Shown one piece after another: positions 1-64,000 of a stretch of DNA of 64,000 nucleotides. This stretch comes from Amphiscolops sp. MND2022 (taxonomy: Eukaryota): assembly GCA_964187785.1 (NCBI GenBank), contig OZ076409.1, positions 45,572,001 through 45,636,000 of the forward strand. Reading direction: 5' to 3'. The notes beneath the pieces were generated by a model, which was not told the origin of the DNA, searched no databases, and was given only the letters and a program-made list of their open reading frames with translations. Within the stretch, counting starts at the first letter, position 1; every line of letters begins with the position of its first letter. The position numbers and the translations under genes were made by a program.

Positions 1-16
1 ACATTGTCGTTAGTTT

Positions 17-1060
17 TTGGACCAATTGATTACAATTGTGCTAAACAGTCCTAGTGTGTCTTCGAAGATTACGAAAGGGCTCTGTAGTTCCAGTCCTGAG
101 ATTTTGTTGGAAGGTGACGAGCATGCCGTTTTTTCATTCTTTGCTGATCTGGCGAAAGTGCTGGTTACATGTGGGGTGTTATCTTCTGACGAGTCGAATG
201 CTGCTGTTACTCAGTTCAGTAGTTATGTTGTGAAGAAGTGGAGATTGCACGATAGATCAGATATCAATGCTAGTGAGATTCCAGATATTGTTCAGTACTT
301 GCGATTTTAGTTTTACTGGTCGTCCAGAAGTTTGTCGCGTATTGAAATTGTGTTGCCTAGTCGTTGGTTTGCCTCGCGTTACCTACCCTCCAGTGTCTTT
401 TGATTTGAGTGGTAGTTCGTTAAGTGAAGCTGCTTCCCAGTGTTGTCTACGATTAGTACAGTCCTACGTGATGAATGCGGGATTTGAACACCAGCAGTTC
501 TTTACTGATTTGATTCTGGATGCCGTCCGTGATGCTATTGCAGATGCTGGTTTGTTTTATGTTACTCCTGGGTTCGACGTCTGAACTATTGTGATCCTGT
601 TGTTGAGTCCTTTATTTCCGACTACCAGAAGTTATACAGTTCGTTTTTACAGGAGCAACGTAGTTCTTCCGAAGCTTATTATGTGGGATGTAACAAAGCT
701 AAGAGACTTGCTCGTTCCAATATTGGGGCTTCCGGATCGGAAACAGGTAGTACCATTAGTGCTACTTCCAAAAAGATGAAGGATGGAGCCTCATCGTCTC
801 GCGGTGTTGCATCTACATCAAAACCCGTAAGCAAGAGCGAGGGGCAGTCTGGTACGCTGAAGAAACCGGAGGGTAGTAAGAAGCAAATTAAGGGTTCCAG
901 TGAAGAAAGAGACCCTGATGTCCATCATCGTGTCAAGTGGCATAAAAACTGTTACAGGCTTTGTTGTTTCGTTTTTATGTGCTTCTTTGATAATCTTGAG
1001 TTATTTTATTGTATACTTTGTCTGTTGAGGCACATTTGTTTTCCGTCGGATTTACTTTAG
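17..1060 (+). pseudogene. 3' part of the antisense accessory gene of element A (frameshifted)
   Basis: ORFs 17-310, 267-584 and 683-1060 lie antisense and convergent to pol. Motifs SSKITKGLCSSSPEILLEG, VLKLCCL..YP and VQSY align with the antisense ORFs of B, D and E. Ser/Lys-rich tail. Confidence 0.8.
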
Positions 1061-1205
1061 ATTAGACAGTTCGAAAAAATTTAACGTGGTCACTCCGGTT
1101 CGGTTTAGTGTGCTGGTTTTTTTCAGTTAGTTCTGAGTTTGACGTGAGTCTTCCGTAGTACCTCAGTCGAGCATTCTGAAGACAGGATTCACCTTAGGTT
1201 TTGGG

Positions 1206-4200
1206 TTAGGTCTCAAGTTGTATCTCCCACGTTTCTAGGATTGTATCCAACAACTGTAGGAGGTAGTTCGGGAGTTTTGGGAGAGTTTGTATAAGCGGTG
1301 GAGTCAAATTGTAGGGATTGTCACTGACATCCAGATTGAATGACGTAACCTTATCGGGGGACGTTTTATCACCATCAGAATTTTCAACTGTGGTTGTTTT
1401 GACCACTTCATTTCCTGTTGTAGTTGCGTTATCTTCTGTCTTGTCTGTGGTTTCTGTAATTGTAGCTTCTTCCGACGACTTTTTCGTAGGTGTTCCGATT
1501 AGAACTTCTCCGAATTCGATTTCCCAAGCTTGCGCGTCCCAATCACTGTGGATTGTTTTAACCTCTGGATCTGGAAGGTAATCTTCCCCTGTGACTGTTA
1601 CGTCAGGTATTCGCTGATTGGATGCGTATAGCCTTAGGCGAATTCTATGGAGGGTTTGTGTGTATCTTGTACCCGTTCTGCGTACGACGTAGTTGTTATT
1701 TGAGAAAACTTTGACTACTATGTAAAGTCTAGTCTAAGTGCAATCTTTGAATGCAAATTTCATTGACTGGTTGTCAGCTTTCGGATTAAGGACGTAGCAG
1801 CAGTCGTTGATTTTGAGTCGCGTAGCAGTCGCTTTCTTATCGTAATACTGTTTGTATTTGAGATATGACCGCATTAGATTGTCTTTGGCGGCTTGGTGTA
1901 TTTTGCGAATTGTTTCTGCAGTTCATCCGTTAGGTCTTCGTTGTTGTCTTTTTCCATTCAGGCTTTAATCCGAGTTTGATGTCCAGAATATTGTACGGGA
2001 TACGTCTGGAACACTGTTGTAGGTTCATAGCCTAAGCTTTCATGGTAGCTTGTATTGTAATTCATTACTGCTATTTGGACGTATTTATGCCACATTGAAC
2101 GTTTCTCTCCCGTTGATATTTTTACGAAGTCTTCAGAGAGGCGTGAGTTCTTTCTAGTATGCCAATTGTTTGAGCATGTTTTGTTGACGCGTGGCTAATC
2201 CGTATGTCTAGTGTTTGGGCAATCTGGTTGACTACCTCTGATCTGAACTGTGATCTTTATCAGTTAATACGACGGTTGGTAAATAACAATGTCTTGTCGC
2301 TACGTCGATAGTACAACGTGCTACTGTTTTTGCAGTCATGTCTTGGGTTGGATAGGCGAAAAGATAGCGTGAAAAGACGTCCATCATTGTGATGATGTGT
2401 TGATATCCGATTGAGGAAGGTAGATTCGGTAGTATGTCTACTTCCAGACAGTCTTCCGGTCCCATTGTAAATTCAGTACTGCTCAGCATTTTGGGACGTA
2501 TTTGTCTCCTGTCGATCCTCTTGTTGGCGATGCAGTCAGGGCATTTCGTTACCCAAGCTCTGATTTTTCGTGATAGGCCCGGGAAATAATATTTTGCTCT
2601 GCATTCTTGTATCATTGTCGTTGTTCCCGGGTGTTTATTCGTTTTTCCGTGTAATGTAGACCGAAGTTCAGGGACTAGGTGTTTGGTTGTGGGTGACTGA
2701 TTCATTTTCTCCGTAATATTTTCGCATAGTACTCCATCTTTCATATTATTCTTTCCTCATGGCGGAGTAGATTTCTCCCGCGTGGCTCAAATTTGAGGAG
2801 ATGTTTGTCATTTTCTTCGTGGAGTATTCATATTTTTAGGGCTTTGAGTATTGGGTCCGCATCTTGTTCGGTTCTCATGCGTGCGTTCGCTCTGATTGCT
2901 CCAAACGCGTAGAATGCGGAGTTGAGTGGTATCTTGATTACTTCAGTTACTTTTGTAGATAGTTTTTTGTTGTTATCGTCGATGGCACATTGTTTGCTTT
3001 GCGCTTTCTTGCCAAAAATTTCTTGTTCTGATTCGTCTTCTTCGTCTGGAGAAAGAAAAGTTGTTCTTCGTCAGTTACGTCCGACGATTGTAGGTTGACT
3101 TCGATGGGTGACGCTAAGATGTCGTCTCGCAGTTTCAATTGTACTTTTTTTTGCGCGTTAGTTCGAGTCTTGAAAGGAAATCTGCTGCTGTATTCTGGGA
3201 GCCTGCTACGTGCATGATGCGGAATTTAAATTGGAGGGTTTAGTCGCAGGCATTCCACAGTGCAGGTGGCGTAGATTTTGTCTGGGAAAAACTTGTCACT
3301 GATCGATTGTCTGTCAGGACCAGTGTTGGTATCGTTGCTTCCCATAAGATATGACTATATTCAAGAAAGGCGTGGTAGATGGCCAAAAATTCCTTGCAGT
3401 ATATTGGCATCTTTAGCTGGGCTGGCGAGAAAACGCGTAATCCGAACGCTACTGGTGCGAAAGTTTTCCTTTTAGAAAGTAGTTTCCGTTCGTCGTTTTC
3501 TTCTATCATGAGAGCGTAGTCTGATGCGCGGAAGCTAGCATCCGTCATGAGGACGTATTGTTTTCCTGCTACAAGTTGTCTGAGCGCAAGTCCGCAGGCT
3601 TCCGCTAGGCTAGCGTTGATCTCTTTGAAATTGTCGACGAGTTCTTCTGAGAGTCTGATTTTAGAGTCGGCTTTTAGGAGTTCACACATACCAATGAGTT
3701 TTCCTGACAGGCGTGGTATGTAGTTTCGGTAGTAATTTACAAGGCCAATATTTTTTGGACTTGCTTTTTTGATTTCGGGAAACGGACTTTGGGGAATTTT
3801 TTTAACTTTTTGTCTTGCGGGCTTACTCCGTCTGGCGTGATGGTTCTTCCGAGGAACTCGACCTGTGTTACTCCAAAGTGACATTTTTTGATTGTCAGTT
3901 TTAGTCCTGCTTGTCTTGACTGAGTCAAAGTACTCTCGCATGAAGCACGAGAAGGCTGACAGGGCTCTGCTTAGTCCTTGGTCTAGGCGACGGTAGGCAA
4001 ACGTCCTTCCGGCAGAATTAAAAGCAAGTAATTCTACTGACATTTGATCTGACATTTGGAGACATGATACACCTGGGAGCAGTCAAGCTTGCAGAACAGT
4101 TTTTTCCATGATAGGTGCTGCGCCGCATCGGAGAGGGTGCTGACGGGGTGGATGTTGTTGATGAAGTCATCTGCGATGAGTGCGTTGATCTTGCGCAAAT

Positions 4201-6110
4201 CCACCAGTAGTCGCAGTTTGCCGTTGGGTTTCCGTTGGGCGAATATGGGGCTTGCGTATTTGGAGAATGGTAGTGTTGTGATTATTCCGAATCGGTGCAT
4301 GAGGGCTAGTTCCACCGTTAGGTCTTCTTTGAGATTGATCGGGACTGGTAGACTCTGCATGTACACCAGTTTGTCATCTTTTGGGGTTAAGCTAACTTTG
4401 AATTCCGTGTTCATCCCGATGAAGTCCGTGTCGTGCGAAGATGTGGTTGAATTCTACTATTGTGTCTTCTAGGTTTTCGCGGTCTTTGCCTGTGATGAGT
4501 TAGTCTGTCCAACTGAACATTGTGAGAAATTTGATTTGGGATTCTTCGCTTGCGGTTGGATCGAGTTTTTCAAGCTCAGCTAGTTCTCGTAGTTCTTTCA
4601 AGATTCGTTTCTGTATGGGAGAGTTTTCTTGTTCATTTCCAGGGTTTTCTGGAGTTGGGAACCGAAATTTTTCTTCGTTATCTTCATGGCGTTCCACTTG
4701 CATTAAGGCGTTGATGTACGTTACAACGTCGTCGTGTTCTGTTAGAAGGTTGAGTGCAGCTATTTCAACTGGGCGGATTATCTTCGTTTCTTTCGGTTTT
4801 AAAATCTACAGTTCGGCCACTTTGGTGTCTGCGGTTATTGTGTAGGGAAAATCCGTGGTATTGGCGATCTTTATTGCTGCTCTTTGGTCCCTAGCTGTTG
4901 TTATTGCTGGGGATACAATCAATTTCGCGCATTCATCGAAATGTGGTGGGGGCTGAATGGTCCCAGTTTTTGGGTGTTCATTACTTACAGGGATCGATGC
5001 GTATATGATACGAGTAGAATGTGCGGGTATCGTTTGTTTTGCGTCTGTTTTGATTGTGATGGGCTGGGGGTTGCATTTCTGCAATTCGTCGGTAAGCGCC
5101 ATCGTGATTTGAATTTTAGGAAAGTCGATTATTCCCTGGGCTGTGTCGAGGATTGCGGCATGTTTTCGCAGGAACGCCAATCCTGTTATGGGAAATGACG
5201 TCTGGTTCATGATGATGAACGTTTCCTCAAACGTGTAGTCCCCACTTTGAAATCGAAGGGTGTACGTAGCAAGTAACTGTTCTAACTCGGTGTTACCGTA
5301 TTGTACTTTGAAAGGGGGTAAAGGTGCCTCATTGATGATGCATTGGCTTGCATTTTGTCTTATTTCTTCCAGCGTCCCTTTCACTAATAGCAATAATGTA
5401 CGCACCTGAATCTACTAGCGCATCGATTTTGACGGTGTTGAATTCAACTGGTAGAAAGAGCATTCTCTTTCTCTTCTTGAGTGTTTTGCAGACATTAACG
5501 GCATGTAATCGTCATCCTTGTGGTGTCGGATGAATTCTCTGATGACATCTAGATCTTCGGGTAGTGATGGTGGGCATTCCGTTTGTTCTTCGTTATTGTC
5601 TGTTGCTGCACTGGCAGGTGCGGTTTGTGGTGGTGGAGGCGAGGATGAGTCAATTGTTTGTTCTCTCGGTTTCCGTGACCACAACGAGTTCTCTTCTATG
5701 CAGAATATATCATCAGCGTTTATCGGCGTAGACGGTGACGGGAACTGTTGGAGACAGTTCTGATTCTTACAAGATTGGCGACAAATGTGGTGGAATTTTT
5801 GGTACCTCTTCAGACTGCTTTTGTGGGTTTGGGACCTGGATCTTGAGGGCGAGTTTGTTAGTGTCGTAGATGGTTGGTTCATCCAAAGGATCGCGACTGT
5901 AATCCGTATCGTATACGTATATTCTGTCAGTTTTTGATTCTGGTAGTGGTCGTCTGAGTGTAGAGTAATTGTCAAGGGATTCCGTTATCTATAGGGGGAG
6001 TGGTGTTGGGTCGTCCGGGTGTCTGGCATTGTGTCTGAGGATCATGGGGGGGGTCTTGGATCGTGTATGCCCTCGTGTGTACCAATTCACCAAAGCGGAG
6101 GCGCGGCGAT
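1206..6110 (-). pseudogene. pol: pol pseudogene (PR-RT-RH-IN) of element A
   Basis: Fragments 4806-5405 (PR region), 4034-4414 and 3737-3928 (RT), 3240-4055 (RT/RH), 2232-2744 (IN). All are collinear with the intact pol at 57002-62110. Confidence 0.92.
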
Positions 6111-7469
6111 TATAATTTTTTTGGCTGAGAGGACGTAGTGGGTACGGACTGTTTGCTGATTTTATTGGTAGGAATGGCGAATTCTCGTTTTTCTTTCTGG
6201 CATCGTTTGCCGCGTTGGCTCCGTCCCAACAATTTTAGTTTTGTGCATTTTCCCGCACGTGTTGCACTTGGGTTTTGATGCTTCGGATTGGTTTGAGTTG
6301 CGTAGTAGCGTTTTTTTCGTAGTCTGCGGCATTCTGCATTGTAGTGGCCATATTTACCACAGTGGGAACAACAACCTTCTTGTCCTCCGTCACAACTGCG
6401 TCTACTGTGCTGAGAGGGACTAGGGTCGTTTCATCAGGCGATCCTAGGCCGTTTAATCGCATCTCTCGTTCAAGGTGTAGAACGACATCGTTGTAGGGCT
6501 TGTCTTTTAGGTATGCCCTGTTGAATAGTTCTGTGACCTGGTCCGGCATTTTTGCCAATATGGCATTGTCAATGAACGTTTGCGCTTCAGAGCCGAACGC
6601 TTCCTTAGCAGTTTTCTGCAGAATGTCTAAGATTTCATGTAGTTTTTGTTTTGTGGGATCAAAGTGCAGCGCATCCCATTCGCATCTTGCTTTTGCTGAG
6701 GATTGGAAATCTCCAAAACAACTTTTGAATGTCGTTATGACTTCTTCTAGATTGTCTTTTTTGGCATCCTGAAGGTTGCAGTACGCTTGAAGTGCAATTC
6801 CGCGGAGTAGTGAATGAAAGTAAGTGATTTTTTGTATCTCAGTTAGGCGTGGATACATTTCGGAATAGGTCCTCAAAAAGTTCAAATTTTTTGGAATTAC
6901 CATCGAAAACTGATAGCGAAGCTGTAAGAGCTTTCGGCATTGGAAACAAGTTGGTGGATTGGAAAGTTTGTGGTTGGGGTGCGAACAGAATTTTAGATGT
7001 TGAGGGACGATCTCCGTCTTGTTCGCTGGAGACAAGTTGTTGTTTCGGTATCTTTGTGGGTTGGTTTGTAGAGTCATTGAGGACTTCTGTCACCATGTTA
7101 CGACTATTTGCCGGTGTAGTTTTGGAGTTAGTCGCATTTGTTTTAACAGGTGTTTACGTTAGGGCTACTGAGGTGTTCTCAGGCTCAGAATCAGAATCCT
7201 GACTGTTCAGATGGATCTGTTGTTTTTTATTCAATCGTGCTATGGGTTTCAGCATTTCCTTTTGGTTCTCTGCTAATATCTTTGCTAAATCAGACATGAT
7301 CTCTTTTCTCACAGACGTTTTTATCTCATTTAAGATCTCAGTATGTATCCTAGGAGACTTGCTCGAACTTGCTAAGAGTTTCAGTACGACTACTCTCAGT
7401 TACAGAGGCCTCGAAATCCCCAGAAACTAGCTCAGCTCCGGCTTCTCTCTTCTGCCTTCTAGTTCTCAT
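6110..7469 (-). pseudogene. gag: gag pseudogene of element A
   Basis: ATG at 7469 (MRTRRQKRE...). The segments FDGNSKKFELFEDLF, YFHSLLRG and HLEREMRLNG match gag of B and E. Frameshifted. Confidence 0.85.
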
Positions 7470-16440: not shown

Positions 16441-18688
16441 TGTCGCAGCCCCAGCAGTGCTGCGAGAATCTAAATACAAGAGGAACGCCAAAAAGAGGAA
16501 GTGAAGAAATTGACAAAGAAGAGAAAGAAACATCATCATGAACCTAAAATAAAACAAGCTTCAAAATTAAGAGATAACTATGTAAACAAACAACTGTCAA
16601 TAATACCATTGTGCAGTACCTAAAATACATAAATATGTAAATACTTAAATATTAGTAAGTGCTACGAGAGCTGCGATTTGTTTACAGCAAAACAGCTAGC
16701 GCGTTGACTGAATTCAATTCAGCTAACGCGTCGACTAGGACACCGTCCCAGCAACTGCAGTGAATTTTATTATTTGCCGAGCAACAGCCAATCAGCGTCG
16801 AGCTCAAACAGCACTAACTGAGTAATCATCTTGGTCAACCGTTCAGTCGACCGAAAGCTGGGACGACCGCCCAGTCGCTCAACCGAACAGCTAATAAAAT
16901 AGTGTGAAGTAAATAAAACCCTGTGCTGTTTTCAACACTATGCTGACTTAAAAGAAGTTGTATTATGACTAGAGATACATGTAAAAGGCGAAGCAACTAT
17001 TTGATAATTTGAAATTGGTGCTAGCAAACAGAATTTATAGTGATGAACTGAGTCAACCTCCCAGGCGGAAGACTGAAATATTTTCATTTGAGTCAAACAC
17101 CAGGGCACAGAATTTAGTGTATCCAAACGGGATAAAAGGCGCTGTGAATTTACAAAACATTGGCCCGTTCTTTTATACCAACCAAAAGTAGTACGGTGAA
17201 AATCAACCCAATTGTGCTATTAACCCCCCCCCAAACATTATTTTCAACTCCGCACGCCCAGTCGTTGACCGGGGCAATCAGTAAGGAATTTTAAAAATAT
17301 CTCGGGCAACCAGGAGGAGCGTTTAATTTGTAATCAGCATTTATCCACCAGTTGCAGTCGGAATTTATTTACATTATTTAGTATTAATTGCAATGTAATT
17401 TGTGATACTGTTTGAGTCAACTTCCCGGACAATTGTTTATGCCTCCTCACTTGAGCGAACACTCCGGAAGAACAACCAGTAATTCCCCTTTTGGTGCGAA
17501 ATCATTGACCATCCCAATTGATACTGTTCGTTTCTAGGAAGTATTAATTGTAATCCTATGCAGTACTTATCCAATCCATAGTAATACCCCCCATGCATTC
17601 GTTTTCGTTTGACAAATTGAGTCAACCACCTAGTCTTACGACCAGGCGACCCGAAGTCAAGTTGTTTACCTGGCGTGCGACGAGACTTCTATTGTTTGAT
17701 GTGTTCAAGAAACATTGGTTAGCTACGTGAATTGTCTGATTTAGTGATAATCAGAGCTGCCAATTTATATTTTAGTACACTTTTGTTAATTCGTTGTTAG
17801 AATTTCATTTACTCTTCGATGTAAAATCAGTTCCTTTTCCCGCTTCAGTAGCTAGGTTCATGAATTTTCAGTGCCAACTTTGACTCGGCGTCTTGAAAAG
17901 GCGGGAGATGAAGAAGAAAGGGACGCGGAATTGGGAAGCGGCAGGAAGTGATTCTCGCTTTCACTTGAAAGTGGGATGAAGCCGAATGCCGAATCCCGAG
18001 GAAGCCTACCTTATTTGGATTTTCTCGTCTTGGAAAACACGCCGAGTTGAACGAGGTGTGAATTCACGCGCGGGGTTTTCCCCGCGTGTCTAGCGTAAAG
18101 TATATATACCTGAAGTGGGATTAGGAACGGACAGATTTTATTTTTCCCAATCTTAATAACGTTTGTTATTCACTCTTTGAAATTGTGTCCAACTTTAATC
18201 TTGGATTTTCATTTTTGAACTTTTCACGAATTTGATATTAACCGTATTTGATTTACTAATGAATCAATCAGTTGACTAACTGACCTTACCTAATATTATT
18301 TTCACCCGACTCAATTAAATCTTGTTAACCAGTATTTTCCACATCATGCCGGAAAGGTCTCAGAAACGGAAACTCAGGAGTGACCAGTCGATTAGTCAGA
18401 TAGATGAAGAGATAGCGAGTTCGACTAATGATGAAAACACGCTCCTGTCAGATAGGGACTTTGAAGACATTTCCAATAAAATCGAAAATAAAATTTCCAA
18501 ACGCCTTAGAGACACTGAGTTGAACCAGCTTGAGATTCTAAAGCTGATTGAGAGCTTATCATCCAAAGTGGACAATTTGTCTAATGTGAGTTCAGAACGA
18601 GGTTGCTTGACCGATAGAGTGGAAAACAGCGGAAACTCCGCTGACGAAGTAGAAGAAGTTGATCTCGGTAGAGGTGAATGTTCTAACA
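16441..18688 (+). repeat. 5' LTR of element B (2248 bp)
   Basis: Direct repeat of 32188-34437; TGTCGCAGCC...TTCTAACA; TATATATA at 18101-18108. Confidence 0.97.
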
Positions 18689-29950: not shown

Positions 29951-30082
29951 ACGAATGACAACTCAAGTCTTACTCAGGTGATTGACGACACCAAACAAAA
30001 CACACGACCGCCCGCCAAAAATCACCAGACAAATCCAAACTACACATAATTCAACCGACCACAAAAGAAGAGAAAACTTCAC

Positions 30083-39866: not shown

Positions 39867-40249
39867 GCGGCCAGGGGAACTGGCTGGCTGCTGATTTCAG
39901 AGGGAATGAACCACTTGCGACGCGGTCTTTTGATGCAAATTTTTAAGCTCCGTAAGTTTTTAGCGTTGATTCGACGCATGTTTAGTCCGGGTTCTTCTGT
40001 TGCTTAGGTTGCTTCGGGTGGGGGATTGGGGGATCAGCAATATACTTTAGATTATGAACGTTTTCTGTGGTTTAGATCATTGTGGAAAACATGGATTCCT
40101 CAAAACTGACTGCTATTGGCAAATTGGATACTGCTGCTTTTCATTCCAAACTTGCAATTACGACGATCTAACTCCAATGAAGTGCGCAGTTTCCGCAACC
40201 GGTGTCAAGAGTTCATTGATCGTTTGCTTGACATCATTCTGTCTTGGTA

Positions 40250-41150: not shown

Positions 41151-41339
41151 GGAAAATATAGCAGTGGACAGTCTATTTAGAAGAATAAAAAGACTATTCT
41201 GTCTTCGGGCAGTCTGTTATAGTTTTAATCGCACAAATCAGACTCCGTAGTAAAAGTGGTGAAATTAGTCCAGTCATTAAAAAACAAATTGGAGCGAAAG
41301 GGACTGTAGTATGTCTTTAATCGGAGAATTGGTTCAGTC

Positions 41340-50439: not shown

Positions 50440-50481
50440 GACAGTATCTTTGGACAGTATCTTTGGACAGTATCTTTGGAC
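50440..50481 (+). repeat. 13-bp tandem repeat (GACAGTATCTTTG)x3
   Basis: Seen directly. Confidence 0.85.
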
Positions 50482-54021: not shown

Positions 54022-55779
54022 TGTCGCAGGCTGCCGCCTGTGACGGCACATTGATAACGACGTCAGCGCCAAACCAGGAAACCGTCCCAGGTACCCTACC
54101 TACATTTTAAACTTCCATTTGCTGAAACTTGAATTTATGTGTTAACTATGTTCGTTTTGTTTGATCAAGTACATTTATAGTTGTTTGTAGTATTAGTCTG
54201 TTAAAATTACGATTTGGAAATATCCAAATCAGGATGTGTTTTGAAGTTTAGCAGGAAGCTTATTGTAATACAAAATGTAAAATCAATTTGAGGCAATAAC
54301 ACACTGTAAGTAAGTTAATCGCGAGAAGGAAACGTGTTCAAGTGAGAAAACGTCCCTTCTCGGCAACGTAACTTTCAGTACAGCTATTAGCCAATCAGAG
54401 TGCTTCTTTTGTTAATAATGAATGCTTCATTCATGATGGCCGAATAAGGCCTATTGACTGAGCGGTGCTATTTTATGCCAGTCCTTTAGTCAAACAGCCA
54501 ATTCAGGCTAATTCAAGCATATTAATACCTTTGCTGTCTAATTGATTCCATACTTACTCGGAGCTACTAGAATAGTGATTTTAATTTAGACAAATAAATT
54601 GGTGATGCTTTGATGCTTATACATTTTCAACTTGAATAAAAGGACAATTCAGGCCCTTTTACCATGTCCTTTAAGTGTGCAGTGCATGATATGGATTTAA
54701 GACTGTTCCGGCCCTGACATGTGAGTATTTCCTGATATCGGTGCGATATTAAAATTCCATTACATATAGCAGTACATTCCATTCTCAACTTAATCCGCAG
54801 TAAACTTGTGTCGGCACGTGCCTGCACTACCCGCTACAAGAAAATATGTAGGCTAAGGTATTTGTTTGCATCACGGTTGAAGTAAATATTCCCAATGAAT
54901 TGTTTGATGTTGCCGCTTAATATGATGACTTTGAATGCCATTCTGTAAATATTCCCCGGAAATATGTAACCGAAGGGGAATTCCTTTGTGAAATTTGAAG
55001 ATCATATGATCTACTTTCCCTCGCAGGTCATGTAAAGAATGTGATTGTCATTCCCCGAGCAGTATAAATACCACTACCCTGTTGGGGAATTCATTAATCT
55101 GTTCTGATCTATGCGAGTAAAGTTGTACAAAAGCAGTTAACCTGTTAGTTTTCCGGTTCTGATAATTCAAATATTCAACCCGGTTCAGTCTCAATGCCTA
55201 CTACCAGAAAACAAAAGAAAGCAAGGAAATCTAGAGGACTTGAAATTCTCTCAGATATAGAAAACTTGAACGTAATGTTAGGTGAAAATCATTTTAATGA
55301 GACAGAAAGGGACGATAGCTTCGATGGTACTTCCATCAGAAGACAGGAAAGTGTCATCAGTAATAACTTGGAAAATGAAGGAATGAATCCTTACTCTAAT
55401 CATAGAAATTTGGGAGTTGGGACTAGTGCCGATTACGGCCAAAATTCAGCAAGCGCAGATTCCCAAGTTGAGATCAATAGATTGTCGAGTGAATTGAACT
55501 CTAGGATATCAAGGGAAATGGATGAGATGATGAATAATGTTAGTTCCCAGATCCAGAGGGCCATAAACGATGCCATCAATAACCAAGTTTTGCCTCAAAT
55601 TCAAAACGTTATTATGGCCGGCCCGGGACAGGGGACTAGAAGGGGATGGGAGAGGTCCGTAGAGAGACCGGAAGTTTATCCCGAAGTTCCACACAGCTCA
55701 AAAGCCAGAATTAATTCAAACAATGAACAAAGTGAAATCCATCATAGAGGTGAGAAATCACATCATAATGTTCATGACA
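54022..55779 (+). repeat. 5' LTR of element E (1758 bp)
   Basis: Starts TGTCGCAG as in B and ends TGACA before PBS TGGTGACAGGAG (55780-55791). TATAAATA at 55063-55070. Partner LTR not in window. Confidence 0.8.
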
Positions 55780-56906
55780 TGGTGACAGGAGACAACGAAT
55801 CTCCAAATCCAGTTCCTGAGTTTCTCACGGGACGAACCTCATCCAGAGACCATCTCGACGGGTCCTTTGAGGACATCAACCTCGACACGACGATCCCAGC
55901 ACAAGAGAGAATCGCTACGGCTGCTGACTCCGACCCCATCACTCGACTGGCAGACGTCTTGACTACAATGCAGAATAGACCGACAGCACAACAACTCACC
56001 ATACGCCCAGTCAACTCAAATACCATGACATTCGATGGCAAAAGTGAGAAATTCGAGCTGTTCGAAGATCTATTTCACACTATGATCAAGATGCAACCAG
56101 AAATGACTGAGCAAATGAAGATCAATCACTTCCACTCCTTATTGAGGAAGAATGCTCTTCAGACGTTCAGAAACATCAGCTCCAGCAACAGACAAACACT
56201 AGAAGACGTATTAATCATCTTTAGACGAAAATACGTCAAGCCCGAGTCACAGGCAACTGCCAAACACAAATGGCACCGTCTGGTCTTTGATCCCAACACG
56301 ATGAAACTGCCTGATTTCCTTGAAGAATTAAATCAAGGGGCAGAAAAGGCGTTTGGAGACCATGCGCAGAAAATGATTGACAGCTTGCTTTACGCAAAAT
56401 TGCCACCGAAACTGAAACGGTCTGTAAATATGGCCAGACTAGAAAATGGCTCATATGACGAGATAGTTGCTCATTTGGAGAGAGAATTAGAGCTTAACGC
56501 CCTCGAGGAGTCAGACGATTTACCAATAGCAACAATGACTTCCTCATCAACTAAGCCCAAAACCCCTCTGTCCACTGGGCAAATGTCCGATATCACTTGC
56601 AATTACTGTAAGGAAAAGGGCCATATAGTCAAAGAATGTGAAAAATTGAAGAAGAAAAAGGAAAAAGATGCCCAACAAGGCAAACAGACTCAGAAAAAGA
56701 CGTATCCGGAGTGTGGCACATGTGGTAAAAAGAACCACCCAGAGGAAAGATGTTGGCAAGGTGCTGGTGCGCATCTTAAACCCAAACGCACCAGACCAGA
56801 TGACGCCAATGACGGTAAACCCAATCCAAAGGCGCAGAAACCACAAAACAAATCAACATCGTCCAACTCACAAACCTCATCTTCCAATGATGAGTCAAAA
56901 AACTAA
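55194..56906 (+). CDS. gag: Gag, 570 aa, two CCHC zinc knuckles
   Basis: CNYCKEKGHIVKEC and CGTCGKKNHPEERC; capsid-like FDGKSEKFELFEDLF...HFHSLLR. Confidence 0.95.
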   Translation: MPTTRKQKKARKSRGLEILSDIENLNVMLGENHFNETERDDSFDGTSIRRQESVISNNLENEGMNPYSNHRNLGVGTSADYGQNSASADSQVEINRLSSELNSRISREMDEMMNNVSSQIQRAINDAINNQVLPQIQNVIMAGPGQGTRRGWERSVERPEVYPEVPHSSKARINSNNEQSEIHHRGEKSHHNVHDMVTGDNESPNPVPEFLTGRTSSRDHLDGSFEDINLDTTIPAQERIATAADSDPITRLADVLTTMQNRPTAQQLTIRPVNSNTMTFDGKSEKFELFEDLFHTMIKMQPEMTEQMKINHFHSLLRKNALQTFRNISSSNRQTLEDVLIIFRRKYVKPESQATAKHKWHRLVFDPNTMKLPDFLEELNQGAEKAFGDHAQKMIDSLLYAKLPPKLKRSVNMARLENGSYDEIVAHLERELELNALEESDDLPIATMTSSSTKPKTPLSTGQMSDITCNYCKEKGHIVKECEKLKKKKEKDAQQGKQTQKKTYPECGTCGKKNHPEERCWQGAGAHLKPKRTRPDDANDGKPNPKAQKPQNKSTSSNSQTSSSNDESKN

Positions 56907-59900
56907 CTTCGCCACGACTCCAATACAACCAACTAATATCTGTCCGACAATTTATCAGATCGGACCCTCCAACGCAAACTTTCCACCAATACAATCAACA
57001 ATTGATGGGCTATCCCTCTGTTGTCTGGCAGCAACAGATGGAAAAAGCTACCATAATCACCTACAACAATACACATTTGTTCCAAAAACCAATTCCTGTT
57101 TGGGATCCTGATTATACCACAACCTTCACTACCCGTTTCAGGCCCATTCCCCTGATTGACGACTACAACCCAACGTACATCGACCAAGACTATGGCAGAG
57201 ATCCCTATTGGGACACCGAGATCTATAACCAAGATTTGCTGCAATTTCAATACGTCCTGGACGATATTGAACACTACAATCGAACAGTCCACGAAAACCC
57301 TCCGATTACTCACAACAAAAAGACACGAGCACTAATCGAAAACTGGCAAATGAATGATGGCACAAACCATCCAGTGTTCCCAAACCCATTGGGGACCGAG
57401 ACCCATGAGGACGTTGCTCAACCCATACCACAATCACTATTGGACGAGAAACAATTCCAGAATGTCTTAATCACCAGAGACGGTGAACCAGACTGTATAC
57501 CATTGTCGACCAACATCAACCTCAAATGCAAGAAACGCATGTTGTACTTCCCCATGGACTTTGGGGAGCTGACCATAGATGGACTCATTGACACTGGAGC
57601 ATTGTCCAGTGCAATTCCAGAAATGGACCTCCGGAAAATTCGACTCTTATCTCCACAATCTGTTATCCGGGAAGGTCCGCCTCCGAATTTCCAAATTATG
57701 GTCGCTAATGGGCAACTGGAAACGCCCAAAAGCACAATAGAACTTAAATTTGAAGTTGGCGACATTGAGTTTCATGAGATTTTCATAGTCATGGAACACC
57801 TGACAGGTCCGATTATCGGCCTAATGTTCCTTCAACGAAACCACACAGTTCTGGACATGAGACAAGGAATACTGAATTTCCCGTTCTTCTCAATGCAGCT
57901 CAAAACAGCTGACCATAAATACTCAAACGTACTTGAACCAATCCTCAACCCTGCTGAAATAACCGTTCGGCCAAATGACAGAGTCCTAATCCGGACTAAT
58001 TCCCTACTCTACCCTGAGAATGCTGTCACTGGAATTTTGCAACCGAGCGACCTTCTTCACGAAGAAGGCGACATCACCTTTTGCCCAGCTTTGGTCACAT
58101 TGAATGATGGCAATATCTTGATACCAGTGAATAATTTCACAGACCACCCTTACAAACTGAAGAAGGGACTCCATATTGCCAATTTCTCAGTCATGACGCC
58201 AGAACAAATGAAATATGTTAAACCGGTAGACCCGGCATCAACCTGGCATCTCTTGCAAAATGACCAAGAGCAAGCGGCCCATTACGTCAGCAGCCTCATC
58301 AAGACCAACAAAAATCTGCAAAATCCTGAAAACTATTGGTTCCCGACTCCAGAAAATCCTGGAAACCCCGAGGAACACACACCCATACAAAAACGGATCC
58401 TACGTGAGTTACAGGCCTTACAGGACCTGGAGACTCTCGACCCCACCAAAGATGAAGAATCACGTGCAAAATTCTTAGAAAACTTCGATTGGAAAGATTC
58501 CACCCTTACTCCTGAAGAGAAGGAGAAAATAGAGGAATTGTTAGTGGAATTCCACGATATCTTTGCACGACACCGATTTGATATAGGCATGAATGAGGAC
58601 CTCAAGGTAAAACTGACACCTAAAGACGATTCCCCAGCCTATAGCCAAAGTCTTCCGGCTCCTATCAACTTGAAGGACGACATCTTAGTCGAATTAGCCA
58701 TGTTGCACAGATATGGCATCATTACCACACTACCGTTCTCAAAGTATGCAAGCCCAATATTTGCCCAAAAGAAACCAAATGGCAAGCTACGACTTTTGGT
58801 TGATTTGAGAAAAATCAACAACCTTATCTCGGATGATTATATAAACAATAATCACCCTGTTAGCACCCTGGTTGATGCTGCCCAACACTTGGCAGGCAAA
58901 AAACTGTTCTGTAAATTAGACTGTTCACAGGCATACCACTGCCTACCAATGGCCGACCAACGCTCAATAGAAATGTTGGCTTTTAATTTTGCCAGTCGTA
59001 CATTCGCGTACAGACGTTTGGCACAAGGCCTTAGTCGGTCACTATCCGCATTCTCGAGTTTCATGAGGGAATACCTCGACAAAGTCATTAAAGCGGATCA
59101 ATGTGCCCAGTATGTGGACGATATCGGCATCGCAGCCAATGATGTCGACCACCTCATGACGAACCTGAGAGCAACATTCAAATGCATTCAGGAAGCAGGC
59201 CTTAAGTTGACAATGCACAAATGTCACTTCGGTGCAAAAGAAATCGATTTTCTCGGACGGACTATTACCCCGCAAGGCGTCAAACCCCAGAAACAGAACG
59301 TGCAAAACTTTCTGGAAAAGACCAAATTCCCAAAGTCGAAAAGGGCTTTGCAGCGCTACTTGGGATTCTTGAATTACTACAGAAATTATGTCCCAAGACT
59401 TTCAGAACGCCTTGCCCCATTCTACAAGATGCTAAAGAATGACGAAAAGGTCCTGGTATCGAAAGAATTGGTCCAACAATTCGAGGAAATCAACAAAGCA
59501 CTTGACAAATGTTGCGACTTGGCATTACAACAACCCATTCCGAACAAACAAATAGCACTAATGACTGACGCAAGTTTTGGTGCAGCCGGATACGCGGTCT
59601 TAATCGAAGATGACCCCAACCAGAAATTCACGTCACTCAGAAAATCGTATGCACCAGTCGCATACGGATCAAAAACTTTCACCCCAGCCCAGATAAAGAT
59701 GTCAATTTATGCAAAAGAATTCCTTGCAATTTACTTTGCATTCAAAGAATTCGGACATATATTCTGGGGTGCGCCGAACCCGGTCATCATCCTTACGGAC
59801 AACAAAGCCGTCACGAGATTTTTCCAAACGAAAATAATACCCCCAGCCCTGTGGAATGCATGTGATTATGTGATTCAGTTCAATTTTGTCATAGCACACA

Positions 59901-62110
59901 TCCCGGGGGCACAGAACACAGCAGCTGACTATTTGTCCCGATTGGAGGCAGATCCGAAGGATAAATTAGTCATGAAAATCCGTGAGGATGTACAAACTTT
60001 ACCAATTGAAATCAATGTCCAATCCGCAGGGGTGTCGCAAGAAGAACAAATCTTCTACACCAATGACGACGATGAGACAGAGGAACAGGCTTGGGCAAGG
60101 AAAGAAGCAATCAGGAAAAACCCAGCAATTGATGAGCCCACTGTCACTATACAAACTTTGTCAACAAATCTGGTCAAGCAACACCCCGATGTACAAGTCC
60201 GATTGAGGAAAATGAACCAGATCATCATTGAGCAATCCAAAGATACAGTATTACAACAATTGAAGGCGAAACTCCTTCATGAAGACTATCCAGAAAACAT
60301 ACTGCAACAAGATGCTCGATATAGACACTATGCAAATAATCTGGAGCGAATCGTACTCAAGGACGAAATCCTGACAAGGCAATATTTTGATGAAACAGGG
60401 AATGTTAAATACCATCAAATTTTGCTCCCGCAACACCTACTTCGGGAAGTGCTCCACTCCCTTCATGGGACAGCGCATAAACATCCCGGGATTTCAAAAA
60501 TGTTGCAGGAAATCAGACAAAAGTATTATTACCCTAACATGGCAAAACATGTCAAAAAGTGGGTAGAAGGGTGTGAACAATGTGCAAAGGACAAACGAGT
60601 CCCAAACGCAACAATCACGCCTGAACTACTTAACTTGCCGGAATGGGACCTTGGACCCGAAGACGCCATGCAAATCGACTTACTGCCGAACCTTCCCCCA
60701 AGTGGAGGATACGAAAATGTTTTAACTGCAATTGATGTCTTCTCTCGATACTTGTTTGCTTATCCTCTTACGGATGCATCAGCCATCAATGTAGCTAAAG
60801 CAATCATTGATATTATGACCAAACATTCTTACCTACCGACGACGCTCATTACGGACAAAGGAACTGCCTTTACCTCCACGGTCATTGCGGAAATTACACA
60901 GATTTTAGGCCTTACCCTAAAATGTGCAACGACGAAACACCCGCAAACTATCGGGAAATTAGAGCGAACGCACGCCTCATTGAAAACGAACCTGAAAATG
61001 GCATGCGGGGAATATCGCCGACAATGGCATAAATATTTACCTTTAGCAGTTCTCAATCATAACACTAGTTATCATGCCAGTATCGGATGCGAACCCACAA
61101 GAGTGTTCCATGGGAGAATCCCATACAACATATTGGATCACAAACTTGGAATGAATCCAAATGAGCCAATCCATCCGACTACTGAATTTGCCGAAGAAAT
61201 CCAGAACCGGACCAAACTCCTTATTGACAAAACAAAGCAGAACATCATGCAGTCATATATCAAATATAAGGAGTATTACGACCGAAAAGCAAAAGCCGCC
61301 CCACTTAAAGAGGGCGATTACTGTTTTGTATTACAGCCGAAAGCGGATCATCAAGGATCAAAAATTCCATTCAGGGATTATCGTTGGGTTGGACCGTTTA
61401 TAGTCCAGAACACCTTACCTAATGAGAATTACATTGTCCGCAGGCTTAATACAAATAAAACGCAGATATTGCATCGAATTCGTCTCAAAAAGTTTGTTCC
61501 AAATCAGCCACTTGAGGACAATTTCCAAGAACAGCGTCTACAGCCGGATGACGAAATAATCATTCCGCAAGACGACTTGTATGTAATAACGTGGGAAACA
61601 AACTTTGGTGAACAGCTAGATACACGAGGCAGCGAGCCTATTCCGGCCAGCTTGACGAATGACGGACAGCCGAGTACGGCAGAAACGAATGCGAGTGACG
61701 CAAGCGAGAATGAAGTTGATTATGTAATCACGAGTGACGAATCAAATCTCACTGACCGCGCGTCGCATAGACGGAATGAACGACTAATTGAGGACGTCAC
61801 TAAAAGAAATGAAGCTACTGAAGCTATTAGAAATGAAGTATTTGATTGGCCGAATCCGGCCGCCTCCCCAAAAACCCAAGAAAAATATTCGCCGGATATG
61901 GCAAATGGACCAAATGACGATGAAAATTTTCCAGAAAGAAATTCAACGAATGAAAGCGATGCACAAAATTCTCCAAATAGGGGGGATGATATTATCGTGC
62001 CCGAAATACCTGAAAACGATGCTAGAAATGAAAGTCTGAGCCCTAGAGGAGGGAAATATAATCTCAGGCCTAACCCTAATCCAAACTACTCAGAAGATTT
62101 CAGATACTAG
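56903..62110 (+). CDS. pol: Pol polyprotein (PR, RT, RNase H, integrase), in the -1 frame relative to gag
   Basis: Frame is open from 56903. LIDTGA (PR), YVDD (RT), TDAS/KEFLA/TDN (RH), H..H..CEQC, IDL/TDKG/LER (IN DDE), GPF. Domain order is that of Ty3/Gypsy. Confidence 0.98.
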   Translation, partial: LTSPRLQYNQLISVRQFIRSDPPTQTFHQYNQQLMGYPSVVWQQQMEKATIITYNNTHLFQKPIPVWDPDYTTTFTTRFRPIPLIDDYNPTYIDQDYGRDPYWDTEIYNQDLLQFQYVLDDIEHYNRTVHENPPITHNKKTRALIENWQMNDGTNHPVFPNPLGTETHEDVAQPIPQSLLDEKQFQNVLITRDGEPDCIPLSTNINLKCKKRMLYFPMDFGELTIDGLIDTGALSSAIPEMDLRKIRLLSPQSVIREGPPPNFQIMVANGQLETPKSTIELKFEVGDIEFHEIFIVMEHLTGPIIGLMFLQRNHTVLDMRQGILNFPFFSMQLKTADHKYSNVLEPILNPAEITVRPNDRVLIRTNSLLYPENAVTGILQPSDLLHEEGDITFCPALVTLNDGNILIPVNNFTDHPYKLKKGLHIANFSVMTPEQMKYVKPVDPASTWHLLQNDQEQAAHYVSSLIKTNKNLQNPENYWFPTPENPGNPEEHTPIQKRILRELQALQDLETLDPTKDEESRAKFLENFDWKDSTLTPEEKEKIEELLVEFHDIFARHRFDIGMNEDLKVKLTPKDDSPAYSQSLPAPINLKDDILVELAMLHRYGIITTLPFSKYASPIFAQKKPNGKLRLLVDLRKINNLISDDYINNNHPVSTLVDAAQHLAGKKLFCKLDCSQAYHCLPMADQRSIEMLAFNFASRTFAYRRLAQGLSRSLSAFSSFMREYLDKVIKADQCAQYVDDIGIAANDVDHLMTNLRATFKCIQEAGLKLTMHKCHFGAKEIDFLGRTITPQGVKPQKQNVQNFLEKTKFPKSKRALQRYLGFLNYYRNYVPRLSERLAPFYKMLKNDEKVLVSKELVQQFEEINKALDKCCDLALQQPIPNKQIALMTDASFGAAGYAVLIEDDPNQKFTSLRKSYAPVAYGSKTFTPAQIKMSIYAKEFLAIYFAFKEFGHIFWGAPNPVIILTDNKAVTRFFQTKIIPPALWNACDYVIQFNFVIAHIPGAQNTAADYLSRLEADPKDKLVMKIREDVQTLPIEINVQSAGVSQEEQIFYTNDDDETEEQAWARKEAIRKNPAIDEPTVTIQTLSTNLVKQHPDVQVRLRKMNQIIIEQSKDTVLQQLKAKLLHEDYPENILQQDARYRHYANNLERIVLKDEILTRQYFDETGNVKYHQILLPQHLLREVLHSLHGTAHKHPGISKMLQEIRQKYYYPNMAKHVKKWVEGCEQCAKDKRVPNATITPELLNLPEWDLGPEDAMQIDLLPNLPPSGGYENVLTAIDVFSRYLFAYPLTDASAINVAKAIIDIMTKHSYLPTTLITDKGTAFTSTVIAEITQILGLTLKCATTKHPQTIGKLERTHASLKTNLKMACGEYRRQWHKYLPLAVLNHNTSYHASIGCEPTRVFHGRIPYNILDHKLGMNPNEPIHPTTEFAEEIQNRTKLLIDKTKQNIMQSYIKYKEYYDRKAKAAPLKEGDYCFVLQPKADHQGSKIPFRDYRWVGPFIVQNTLPNENYIVRRLNTNKTQILHRIRLKKFVPNQPLEDNFQEQRLQPDDEIIIPQDDLYVITWETNFGEQLDTRGSEPIPASLTNDGQPSTAETNASDASENEVDYVITSDESNLTDRASHRRNERLIEDVTKRNEATEAIRNEVFDWPNPAASPKTQEKYSPDMANGPNDDENFPERNSTNESDAQNSPNRGDDIIVPEIPENDARNESLSPRGGKYNLRPNPNPNYSEDFRY

Positions 62111-62338
62111 AAAAGACTGAATTCAATTCAGGAACCGAGCCCTGAATCGTGCTTTCTTTTCCTTTTATCGTTTTTTTTCTTTCCAGTCCCATGAAGAAAG
62201 TATTTTGAATAAATAATGGGACGTACAGAGATCCCTTACAAAGCAGATAAATAACGGGACCAAAAAACCAAGAATAGTGAAATGAAAATGCAAAACAACA
62301 AAGTTTACAGTCCAAAAAGAACACATATATATGTACAG

Positions 62339-64000
62339 TTAGTCTTTAGATCCACCAGGAGTAGATTCCACCACTACAGAAGAAGATCTGGATCGGGACC
62401 GACTCCTTTCCATGCGTCTGCGCTTGGTATCACTCGGTAGGCGAACAGCAGGAGCATCTCTCACAGAAGGAACGTCAGATGAAGCAACGGTCTGAGCAGC
62501 CCCTCCCTCACCGGAGAGAACGGAACGGTGGGACGACATGAGGGACTTATATATAGATGAGCGACCAAAGGTATCTACATAAGCCCAGGGGTCGTAATCA
62601 GAGCAGAGTCCAGATTGCCCGAACGAAGCAGATAAAAGAGAGAATTTATCAAGGTTGATGTCAGAACAACAAAGGGCCAGAAGGTCTGGGACCTCAGTTA
62701 GATAGCTTTGACAGGGCAAAACCACGTCGGACATTCGGGACTGGAGACCCTTAGTGTCTATCTTCCCCATGACCACTGCGGGGTACTGAGGACTGACAGT
62801 GGTCAAACACAGGCAACTCAGTTTAAAAAGGTAGCAAATCTGGCTGTGGGCATGAAAGAAATCGAGCCCCATGAGGAACTCTATAAGGTCTGCAGATTCA
62901 TTAACGAGGCTAGGGTCTGAAGAATGGTTGACTCGAAGATAATCCAACAGTGCCACGTATTCGTCCCTGCATGAAGCCTCATTTGGACCAGTTACCCAAG
63001 ACCGCAACTGGAAGGTCGAATACAGGATACTGAAGTGTCGGAGGGCTACCTCAGTGGGACGCTTCAGCATGATGTACGGGTCAAATGCGGCCAGTCCTTT
63101 GATAATGTCAGAGCTGAGCCCAGTATGTCGGAGGACTGCTCCCAATAAGTACTCTATGTACTTCTTGGCACTTGCTACGAAGTCAGACTGCGCTGAGTCG
63201 GCAGTCTTGTCGATGTCTGCTTTATTGGACTTCTTGTTGAAGTGTAACCCAGCGGCCTTCAGGGTACTTGCTGCAGCAACCTTAGTAGTCATTTTGAGCC
63301 TGACTAGGAATTCGTCATCCTTCAGGAATTTCCCGTCCCGAGTTGTGAAATTGAGCAGTAGTAACCAAGCATTCTCAAGAGGAATGGTATCGGGCTCGTA
63401 AACGCGGGAGCAGAGCCGACTGATGTACCTACAAACGTCCCCACACAGGTAAAAGGTGGCGTCTCGTCTTTGTAAGAGATTGACGGTGAAGCTTGAGACA
63501 TCTAAAACGCAAAATAAGAAAGGTCCACTTGGGAACTTCGGACTGAGGTGTGTCTAAGCGTAGTCAACTTACAATCACTGACGAGACGTTGGAAGAATTC
63601 CAGTCGGACGGCAAAAAACTCGTCGGATATCAGGGACCACTCGAAGCTTTGAACCTTGTTATGCACCCCTTGGTTCTCTTGCAATCTGGAATGCATGGTC
63701 AAGAAGCGGAGAACTGACTTCCACCGCCTAACCAGGTCGCGGCACAAATCAGGGAGTTTGTTGACTTCCAGTCTGCATGTGGTAATAGCCTAAACATAAC
63801 ATTGCCTCGGAACTAGTAACACAAGCACAACACGTTCCACAGCTCACTCTCCCAGGATCAAAACGGAAATACTAACGCGAGTGAGTTCAGGTGACTCTTG
63901 GACCCAGTCCTCAGTGGTAAATCCGCCCAGAGAGACAAGCAGACACTGGAGAACGGAGAACATGTCTATCCGGCCGAAAACACTGTAGGTATGTTTATGC
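62339..64000 (-). CDS. Spliced antisense accessory gene of element E (exons >64000-63877, 63789-63573, 63501-62339; 5' part outside window)
   Basis: Introns 63790-63876 (GTTAGT...TTTAG, phase 0) and 63502-63572 (GTAAGT...TTTTAG, phase 1). The spliced frame has no stops and is collinear with the 630-aa ORF of B. Confidence 0.85.

What the first reader, a model, noticed from the sequence alone, without database searches (positions are those of the whole stretch)
17..64000. Four divergent Gypsy elements all carry a homologous antisense gene downstream of pol
Seen: A (17-1060, +), B (27459-29950, -), D (40250-41150, +) and E (62339-64000, -) each have coding sequence on the strand opposite to gag-pol and convergent with it. 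The proteins share collinear blocks although the DNA shows no obvious similarity. Block 1: SSKITKGLCSSSPEILLEG / ISRLSSSLSCFSLDMLLMG / SSDIIKGLAAFDPYIMLKR. Block 2: LKLCCL..YP / FKLSCL..YP / FKLCG. Block 3: VQSY / VQSY / VQGY / CQSY. Each ends in a Ser/basic low-complexity tail. Known: antisense extra ORFs are described mainly in plant Tat/Retand-type elements, and env sits on the sense strand. Inference: an ancient, selected accessory gene defining a clade of animal Gypsy elements, possibly acting in anti-silencing, transcription control or targeting.
Basis: partly seen in the sequence, partly recalled or inferred. Interest (0 to 1): 0.88.

Follow-up and report, generated by a model that had tools for sequence, protein, structure and literature searches.

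The report
Retrotransposon carrying a tamed transposase gene
A large family of copy-and-paste jumping genes in this animal carries, on its opposite strand, an intron-containing gene that descends from the enzyme of a cut-and-paste jumping gene, seems to have lost its cutting site, is kept by strong selection and is swapped between family members like a cassette.

Summary
Confirmed and extended. All four window elements carry pieces of one antisense (AS) gene convergent with pol; A, B and D are broken copies, E has open frames. It lay beside pol in 34 of 34 AS-chosen loci and 20 of 20 pol-chosen loci, and in 0 of 10 loci of other integrase-bearing lineages. dN/dS is 0.03-0.22. New here: the protein is homologous to transposases of a hAT5/hAT6-like DNA transposon (profile match over about 500 collinear columns, E 2e-9, controls at background). 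The first two catalytic aspartates are not conserved. Deep AS and integrase trees agree, but within lineages the AS coding cassette is swapped between elements that are otherwise 97-99% identical. Best reading: a Gypsy ancestor absorbed a nested hAT insertion and kept a non-cutting transposase as a nuclear regulator, protecting or driving its own expression. Origin is well supported; function is inferred. No structure prediction or RNA data could be obtained. I found no description in ten literature searches; Repbase and Dfam were not available.

The parts
2..1060 (+). Element A: 3' part of the AS gene, broken by stops and frame changes; finger exon and middle exon lie up to 2 kb left of the window
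1206..7089 (-). Element A: decayed pol and gag
16441..18689 (+). Element B: 5' LTR (96.9% to the 3' LTR), starts TG, followed by TGG
18319..26992 (+). Element B: gag-pol with frame changes and a 1.9-kb tandem duplication (23198-25094 / 25105-26992)
27391..29962 (-). Element B: intron-free core of the AS gene (finger, hAT-like body, Ser/basic tail); 634-codon open frame, then stops and frame changes
30831..31391 (-). Element B: acidic low-complexity ORF, probable 5' exon of the AS gene (short exons between it and the core inferred from a related copy)
31611..32075 (+). Element B: small sense ORF just before the 3' LTR, back to back with the AS gene
32188..34438 (+). Element B: 3' LTR
40110..41156 (+). 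Element D: decayed 3' remnant of the AS gene
41550..46409 (-). Element D: decayed pol and gag; flanked by 74%-identical repeats at 38854-39866 and 46583-47862 (probable old LTRs)
54022..55779 (+). Element E: 5' LTR, 99.7% to the 3' LTR about 4-6 kb right of the window; 5-bp target-site duplication
55149..62110 (+). Element E: gag (585 codons stop to stop) and pol (1,738 codons; protease, RT, RNase H, integrase in Gypsy order)
62339..63501 (-). Element E: AS exon 4 (helical region that carries the strongest hAT match, then Ser/Arg tail)
63502..63572 (-). Element E: predicted AS intron 3, 71 nt, GT-AG
63573..63789 (-). Element E: AS exon 3
63790..63876 (-). Element E: predicted AS intron 2, 87 nt, GT-AG
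63877..64000 (-). Element E: 3' end of AS exon 2; the rest of exon 2, intron 1 (140 nt) and exon 1 (about 670 codons, with the finger) lie right of the window in L031

Best explanation
A hAT5/hAT6-like DNA transposon once inserted, in reverse orientation, between pol and the 3' LTR of an ancestor of this Gypsy clade. The retrotransposon kept the transposase gene, lost the hAT ends, and the protein lost the catalytic aspartates but kept the finger and the helical scaffold and gained a long acidic tail. Because the gene lies antisense, its introns are not spliced out of the genomic RNA and so survive reverse transcription; it must be transcribed from its own promoter near the 3' LTR of the integrated copy. 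The protein most likely works in the nucleus as a non-cutting DNA- or chromatin-binding factor that keeps the element transcribed (transactivator or anti-silencing factor). Its faster divergence and cassette swapping fit conflict with host silencing. Shown: presence, linkage, selection, sequence homology, conserved splice signals, swapping. Inferred: capture by nested insertion (about 0.8), loss of cutting (about 0.8), expression and splicing (about 0.9), regulatory role (about 0.45).
For: Homology: the AS profile scores 34 bits on a host DNA-transposon ORF, 300 shuffles at most 4.1 bits. That transposon has 12-bp inverted ends starting CAG and 5- or 6-bp target duplications in 9 of 10 copies, the mark of hAT5/hAT6 (PMC12730594, passage). 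Fifteen public relatives show finger, FDE, MDG, CxxH, RW and HG..V+xG motifs. Profile-profile AS vs this family: probability 94.7, E 6e-8, 490 columns; with the deeper AS profile 96.3, E 1.8e-9, 504 columns, reversed control 0.07, five column shuffles 0.015-0.63; this family vs Pfam-labelled hAT proteins 96.8, E 2.8e-10. Reciprocal HMM: 137 domains at E<1e-3 among 450 AS pieces, 0 in reversed pieces. ESM Atlas named look-alikes were all hAT families, scores 0.83-0.88, a lead only. Finger kept: C62 67 of 72, H88 72 of 76. Catalytic columns: first-D column R27/Q26/E17 of 82 with D not among the eight commonest; second-D columns G56/N13/D7 of 85 and C63 of 83; neither is among the columns with 70% or more D/E. 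Selection: between subfamilies pN 0.08-0.23 against pS 0.68-0.88; dN/dS 0.03-0.22 where measurable. Introns: 46 of 48 junction pairs in 16 E-type loci are GT..AG at the predicted codon while lengths vary; the first intron sits at the same codon and phase in E and in 13 of 15 A/D-type loci examined, and is absent in the 3 B-type loci examined. N-terminal 460 residues of E: 14-16% D/E, 27-34% S/T/P. Precedents: Grande gene23 is nuclear and has its own promoter (PMC7264820); VANC anti-silencing factors are captured proteins (PMC13547354, passage).
Against: No functional, expression or structural data. The hAT signal is uneven: helical region E 3e-11, finger 1.5e-4, RNase H-like part 0.035, region 345-520 0.13, C-terminal region 0.32, so the catalytic columns rest on a weakly supported alignment. 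AS vs the canonical ZMYM1-type hAT profile directly gave only E 0.23; Pfam and PDB sequence searches found nothing. A second Atlas search with the C-terminal part returned unrelated helical proteins. Other acidic residues are well conserved (E268, D338, E598), and the column that may match the third catalytic residue is D45/E30 of 109. AS alleles are exchanged while the LTR stays the same, which argues against allele-specific binding to the element's own LTR. No shared repeated motif was found in the LTRs. Strong selection on a protein acting in trans needs the benefit to return to the coding copy, which is unexplained.
Confidence: 0.45

Rival explanations
1. Same hAT origin, but the protein steers integration: it binds chromatin or DNA through the finger and tethers the integrase complex or escorts it into the nucleus.
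For: Present in every sampled clade member; finger and basic tail kept; target capture is a native transposase function (established knowledge); a step in the replication cycle would explain selection as strong as on pol.
Against: Near-identical integrases (98%) pair with AS alleles only 63-75% alike, and one AS allele (98%) pairs with integrases 91-92% alike, which is awkward for a tight AS-integrase interface. Insertion-site bias was not examined.
Confidence: 0.2
2. Same origin, but it antagonises host silencing proteins by protein-protein contact (decoy or dominant-negative partner of a host hAT-derived or small-RNA pathway factor), with no DNA target in the element.
For: AS diverges much faster than integrase (15-28% vs 50-54% identity between lineages; 54% vs 92% within the A/D lineage) and is swapped independently of the LTR, as in arms races. 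The host has many hAT genes (150 scored matches).
Against: The finger cysteines and histidines are among the best-kept residues. No test for positive selection was run; no host partner is known.
Confidence: 0.17
3. The AS gene and the small sense ORF that lies back to back with it before the 3' LTR form a two-gene module (for example regulator plus effector, or toxin-antidote-like maintenance).
For: A sense ORF sits at that place in E (286 codons, 52-73% kept in 8 of 8 extended loci) and in B types.
Against: E- and B-type sense ORFs show no similarity to each other and no Pfam match. In B types the AS cassette is swapped while the sense ORF stays 94-99% identical.
Confidence: 0.08
4. The protein still acts on DNA chemically through a rearranged active site (for example cutting or recombining element DNA).
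For: Conserved acidic residues E268, D338, E598; W358 matches the hAT RW tryptophan in 79 of 82; the alignment of the catalytic region is weak.
Against: No conserved D at either expected site, CxxH motif not kept; no hAT-like ends bracket the gene; sampled elements have ordinary LTR ends and target duplications.
Confidence: 0.06
5. The hAT likeness is confined to one helical segment and a generic finger; the gene came from a host gene or virus.
For: Only two of five sub-regions reach significance alone; direct comparison with canonical hAT proteins failed.
Against: The matches are collinear over about 500 columns in the right order and spacing; reciprocal and shuffled controls are clean; a host hAT-derived gene would still be a transposase descendant.
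Confidence: 0.08

Closest known systems
Plant Retand/Tat elements (Grande, RIRE2, Retand) with antisense ORFs; also fungal Boty (PMC7264820, parts 1-2 of 3 read; PMC11963269, passages)
   Same: [quoted passage not shown]
   Different: Animal host; no TRP28/PF04195 or SMC match; protein is 850-1,300 aa with a finger; conserved introns (the word intron does not occur in PMC11963269's main text); origin traceable. PMC7264820 states that lack of similarity to other TEs does not support a nested-TE origin for the plant genes; here that origin is supported.
hAT5/hAT6-type hAT transposases (5-6-bp target duplications; PMC12730594, passage)
   Same: Collinear homology from finger to helical domain; a family of this type is present in the host.
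   Different: No inverted ends or own target duplication, first two catalytic D not kept, extra acidic N-terminus and Ser/basic tail, mobilised as part of an LTR element.
Transposase-derived host regulators (ZBED proteins, DAYSLEEPER, FHY3/FAR1; recalled, FHY3/FAR1 seen only as a reference title)
   Same: Transposase scaffold with DNA-binding finger reused as a regulator.
   Different: Those are single-copy host genes; this one was domesticated by another transposon and exists in at least hundreds of copies.
VANC anti-silencing proteins of VANDAL/MuDR transposons (PMC13547354, passages)
   Same: Captured gene, fast-evolving accessory factor of a transposon; the model for the proposed function.
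   Different: Plant DNA transposons; derived from MAIN-like proteins; sequence-specific function shown, whereas nothing is shown here.
env-like third ORFs of animal Gypsy elements
   Same: Occupies the same slot between pol and 3' LTR; another Gypsy clade in this genome has such a sense ORF there.
   Different: Opposite strand, no fusion-protein match, finger and hAT homology instead.

Membership tests
Ty3/Gypsy LTR retrotransposon | pol order protease-RT-RNase H-integrase | tested here: met
   Pfam on element E pol
Ty3/Gypsy LTR retrotransposon | Two LTRs with TG..CA ends, primer-binding site, short target duplication | tested here: met
   E: 99.7% LTRs, TGG after the 5' LTR, 5-bp duplication; B: 96.9% LTRs
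Ty3/Gypsy LTR retrotransposon | Placement in a named metazoan Gypsy clade | not testable with these tools
   No reference RT set (GyDB, Repbase) was available; the tree holds host sequences only
Retand/Tat lineage | Antisense ORF between pol and 3' LTR | tested here: met
Retand/Tat lineage | TRP28 (PF04195) domain in the antisense ORF | tested here: not met
   No Pfam match
Retand/Tat lineage | Flowering-plant host | tested here: not met
   A haem-NO-binding (soluble guanylate cyclase-type) exon flanks element E, which points to an animal (established knowledge)
hAT transposase (descent) | Collinear homology to hAT transposases | tested here: met
   via the hAT5/6-like family, not directly to canonical hAT
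hAT transposase (descent) | N-terminal BED-type C2H2 finger | tested here: inconclusive
   C-x2-C..H-x5-H kept and aligned to the family's finger (E 1.5e-4), but no Pfam zf-BED match; one family member matches zf-BED just under cut-off
hAT transposase (active) | Conserved D-D-E triad and CxxH motif | tested here: not met
   rests on a weakly supported part of the alignment
hAT transposase (active) | Gene flanked by terminal inverted repeats and own target duplication | tested here: not met
   No bracketing inverted repeats above 10 bp in one E and one B element
hAT transposase (descent) | RNase H-like fold with helical insertion (Hermes-like) | not testable with these tools
hAT5/hAT6 (the host donor-type family L115-L126) | Short inverted ends and 5- or 6-bp target duplications | tested here: met
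   9 of 10 copies: five of 5 bp, four of 6 bp
hAT5/hAT6 (the host donor-type family L115-L126) | Phylogenetic placement with Repbase hAT5/hAT6 | not testable with these tools
   Reference sequences not held
env-bearing Gypsy (errantivirus-like) | Sense-strand third ORF with fusion-protein features | tested here: not met
   AS gene is antisense in 54 of 54 loci; no fusion match
VANC-like anti-silencing factor | Sequence-specific binding to the own element and loss of repressive marks | not testable with these tools
   Needs ChIP and chromatin assays

The most novel reading that the evidence does not exclude
A retrotransposon clade domesticated a DNA-transposon transposase as its own counter-silencing factor, preserves it as a spliced gene by keeping it antisense, and reshuffles alleles of it among replication backbones: a class I/class II composite with an exchangeable anti-host cassette, the first animal counterpart of VANC-type systems.
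Probability: 0.3. Interest if true: 0.92.

Novelty: new variant of a known kind. Interest (0 to 1): 0.8.

Why it matters
The origin and role of antisense genes in LTR retrotransposons are open questions; a 2020 review says their origin is mostly unknown and that a nested-transposon origin lacks support (PMC7264820). Here such a gene can be traced to a DNA-transposon transposase, in an animal, in a clade with many recent copies. It shows domestication of one transposon by another, shows that antisense orientation lets a retroelement carry an intron-containing gene, and supplies natural allele swaps on near-identical backbones, which make the function testable by comparison alone.

Tried and rejected
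Pfam on window proteins, on 23 full-length relatives and on 41 distant pieces: no informative match. PDB sequence search with the AS profile and with the hAT5/6-like profile: nothing significant. AS profile vs ZMYM1-type hAT profile: E 0.23; vs the six other host hAT ORFs tested: no hit. Atlas search with the C-terminal part: unrelated helical proteins. DUF4371 search of the host genome: nothing rang, controls included. RNA runs: no RNA holder listed, which is no evidence either way; no reads could be laid. Metagenome contigs: 387 pattern matches, none confirmed. Relic hAT ends and repeated LTR motifs: none above chance except one known tandem repeat in a B-type LTR. A bacterial promoter scan of 100 bases was irrelevant. 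Earlier scan findings: none. Rejected: shadow ORF of pol (no overlap, own selection); chance passenger (20 of 20 pol-chosen loci, dN/dS far below 1); env (wrong strand); stand-alone host gene or active hAT (0 of 34 AS-chosen loci lacked pol, though these were top-scoring hits). Literature: ten searches listed no paper describing such an element; subscription journals, Repbase and Dfam were not covered, and no supplements were read.

Full report
Observation. The window is C1:45,572,001-45,636,000 of a 1.07-Gb genome; a haem-NO-binding exon beside element E indicates an animal. The pol genes match each other at 65-70% DNA identity, the AS regions not at all. A profile made only of database proteins hits pieces of all four (A 1e-26, B, D 1e-11, E 4e-19 among 1,232 window ORFs). 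A, B and D carry stops and frame changes; D shows only the 3' part. E is a 16-kb element with 99.7% identical LTRs, a 5-bp target duplication and open gag and pol frames.

Anatomy of the gene. In E it continues to about window position 66,500 in four predicted exons of roughly 670, 162, 72 and 387 codons with introns of 140, 87 and 71 nt. In 16 E-type loci, including E itself, all 48 donors are GT and 46 of 48 pairs end in AG at the predicted codon, while intron lengths vary and synonymous sites are saturated; six loci have a further insertion of about 105 nt in exon 3 with intron-like ends. The first intron follows the same seven-residue motif in phase 0 in E and in 13 of 15 A/D-type loci examined (two gave no motif match), and is missing in the three B-type loci examined. 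With the integrase tree grouping B with A/D (97/91), precise loss in B is the simplest reading, and would be indirect evidence for a spliced antisense RNA (inference). B types have an intron-free core of about 850 codons (58 database clusters) preceded by probable short acidic exons. The protein reads: acidic, Ser/Thr/Pro-rich N-terminus, C2H2 finger, conserved body of about 650 residues, Ser/basic tail.

Distribution and linkage. Genome searches returned 103, 53 and 97 scored matches for three lineages, lower bounds from 7,400-10,900 candidates each. All 34 loci fetched by their AS gene had a convergent pol (16 E-type; 7 B-type; 11 A/D-type). All 20 loci picked by pol from a list of 150 A-type integrase hits had AS on the opposite strand; 0 of 10 loci picked from the Pfam integrase list had it within 4 kb (one stretch was only 716 bases). 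The 16 AS-bearing integrases form one side of a 100/99 branch against 24 others (rows too short or without a hit were left out). A full-length relative, P0015, has no match above 53% in this genome, so the gene probably occurs in another organism too. A profile search found 824 proteins at E<=0.001 among 1.84 billion, of which only the best 150 were shown, all unnamed.

Selection and swapping. Between subfamilies pN is 0.08-0.23 against pS 0.68-0.88; dN/dS is 0.04-0.06 where dS is measurable and 0.03-0.22 within subfamilies, against 0.03-0.08 and 0.12-0.22 for pol, with one near-identical pol pair at 1.0. Trees of 26 loci share the deep splits, but three supported AS splits among B types conflict with integrase. 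Two elements are 97-99% identical to a reference over gag-pol and above 90% over the aligned parts of the LTR, yet 60-77% over the AS coding region. Integrases 98% alike carry AS alleles 63-75% alike, and AS alleles 98% alike ride on integrases 91-92% alike; one E-type locus (L044) shows the same pattern. The AS coding region therefore moves as a cassette.

Origin. Pfam and PDB gave nothing. The ESM Atlas pointed to hAT families at lead level, but a ZMYM1-type hAT profile did not match (E 0.23). A recalled hAT motif used as a DNA pattern found 13 sites; ten belong to an internally deleted transposon family with 12-bp inverted ends and, in 9 of 10 copies, 5- or 6-bp target duplications, which define hAT5 and hAT6 (PMC12730594, passage). 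Its ORF scores 34 bits on the AS profile against at most 4.1 for 300 shuffles. Fifteen public full-length relatives carry finger, FDE, MDG, CxxH, RW and a C-terminal E motif. AS against this family gives probability 94.7-96.3, E 6e-8 to 1.8e-9 over 490-504 collinear columns, with reversed and shuffled controls at 0.015-0.63; the family in turn matches Pfam-labelled hAT proteins at E 2.8e-10. The reciprocal HMM finds 137 domains in 450 AS pieces and none in reversed pieces. Caveat: the signal is concentrated in the helical region (3e-11) and the finger (1.5e-4); the other three sub-regions give 0.035, 0.13 and 0.32. At the columns aligned to the first two catalytic aspartates there is no conserved D; the third site is uncertain (D45/E30 of 109), and E268, D338 and E598 are conserved elsewhere. 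No hAT-like ends bracket the gene. No structure could be predicted.

Mechanism. Shown: a universal, selected, intron-bearing, hAT-related antisense gene that is exchanged between backbones. Inferred: capture by a reverse-oriented nested insertion; survival of introns because they lie on the strand opposite to the packaged RNA; expression from a promoter near the 3' LTR; loss of cutting. I put 0.45 on a nuclear DNA- or chromatin-binding factor that keeps the element expressed, 0.2 on integration tethering, 0.17 on protein-level antagonism of host silencing, and less on a two-gene module with the neighbouring sense ORF, on residual chemistry, or on a non-hAT origin. Swapping without LTR change speaks against strict allele-to-LTR recognition and against a tight integrase interface, and fits a host-facing role best.

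Comparison and novelty. The arrangement works like that of plant Retand/Grande elements (PMC7264820, parts 1-2 of 3 read; PMC11963269, passages) but fails membership: no TRP28 domain, animal host. The protein descends from hAT transposases but is not an active one. VANC is the functional model (PMC13547354, passages). Another Gypsy clade here holds a sense ORF with a weak fusion-glycoprotein match in the same slot (E 0.001, below cut-off). Ten literature searches listed no report of such an element (listings only, apart from the papers named, plus passages of PMC12477816, PMC3942097 and a blank look-up in PMC6004678); Repbase, Dfam and subscription journals were not covered. Verdict: real, a new variant of a known kind, interest 0.8.

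Noticed in passing
window 31611-32075 (+); L031 4543-5403 (+); L071 1158-1952 (+): A second accessory ORF on the sense strand just before and running into the 3' LTR, back to back with the AS gene; conserved within E types and within B types, no similarity between them, no Pfam match.
   Followed up: partly
window 55149-55779: The gag frame of element E begins about 630 bases inside the 5' LTR and reads through the primer-binding site; B and a related copy look similar.
   Followed up: no
window 23198-25094 and 25105-26992: 1.9-kb tandem duplication (99%) of the integrase region in element B; real or an assembly artefact.
   Followed up: no
L115-L126: A recently spread hAT5/hAT6-like family, 0.76-1.9 kb, with different internal deletions in each copy and mixed 5- and 6-bp target duplications.
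   Followed up: yes
L129, L188, L189, L192, L195: A second Gypsy clade with a sense ORF after pol that weakly matches a viral fusion glycoprotein family.
   Followed up: partly
window 10174-14422 (-): A fifth, AT-rich decayed retroelement with RT-like frames and no AS hit.
   Followed up: no
window 34996-35724: Short nested inverted and direct repeats, MITE-like.
   Followed up: no
L032 1-5283 and 9312-9511: A 5-kb tandem repeat array and a 200-base N gap just left of the window; the gap falls inside element A's AS gene.
   Followed up: no
L031 8652-9104 (+): Host exon with a haem-NO-binding domain 1.6 kb beyond element E's 3' LTR.
   Followed up: partly
L036, L037, L038, L043, L046, L048: An extra intron-like insertion of about 105 nt at one codon of AS exon 3 in one branch of E types: intron gain or loss inside a retrotransposon.
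   Followed up: partly
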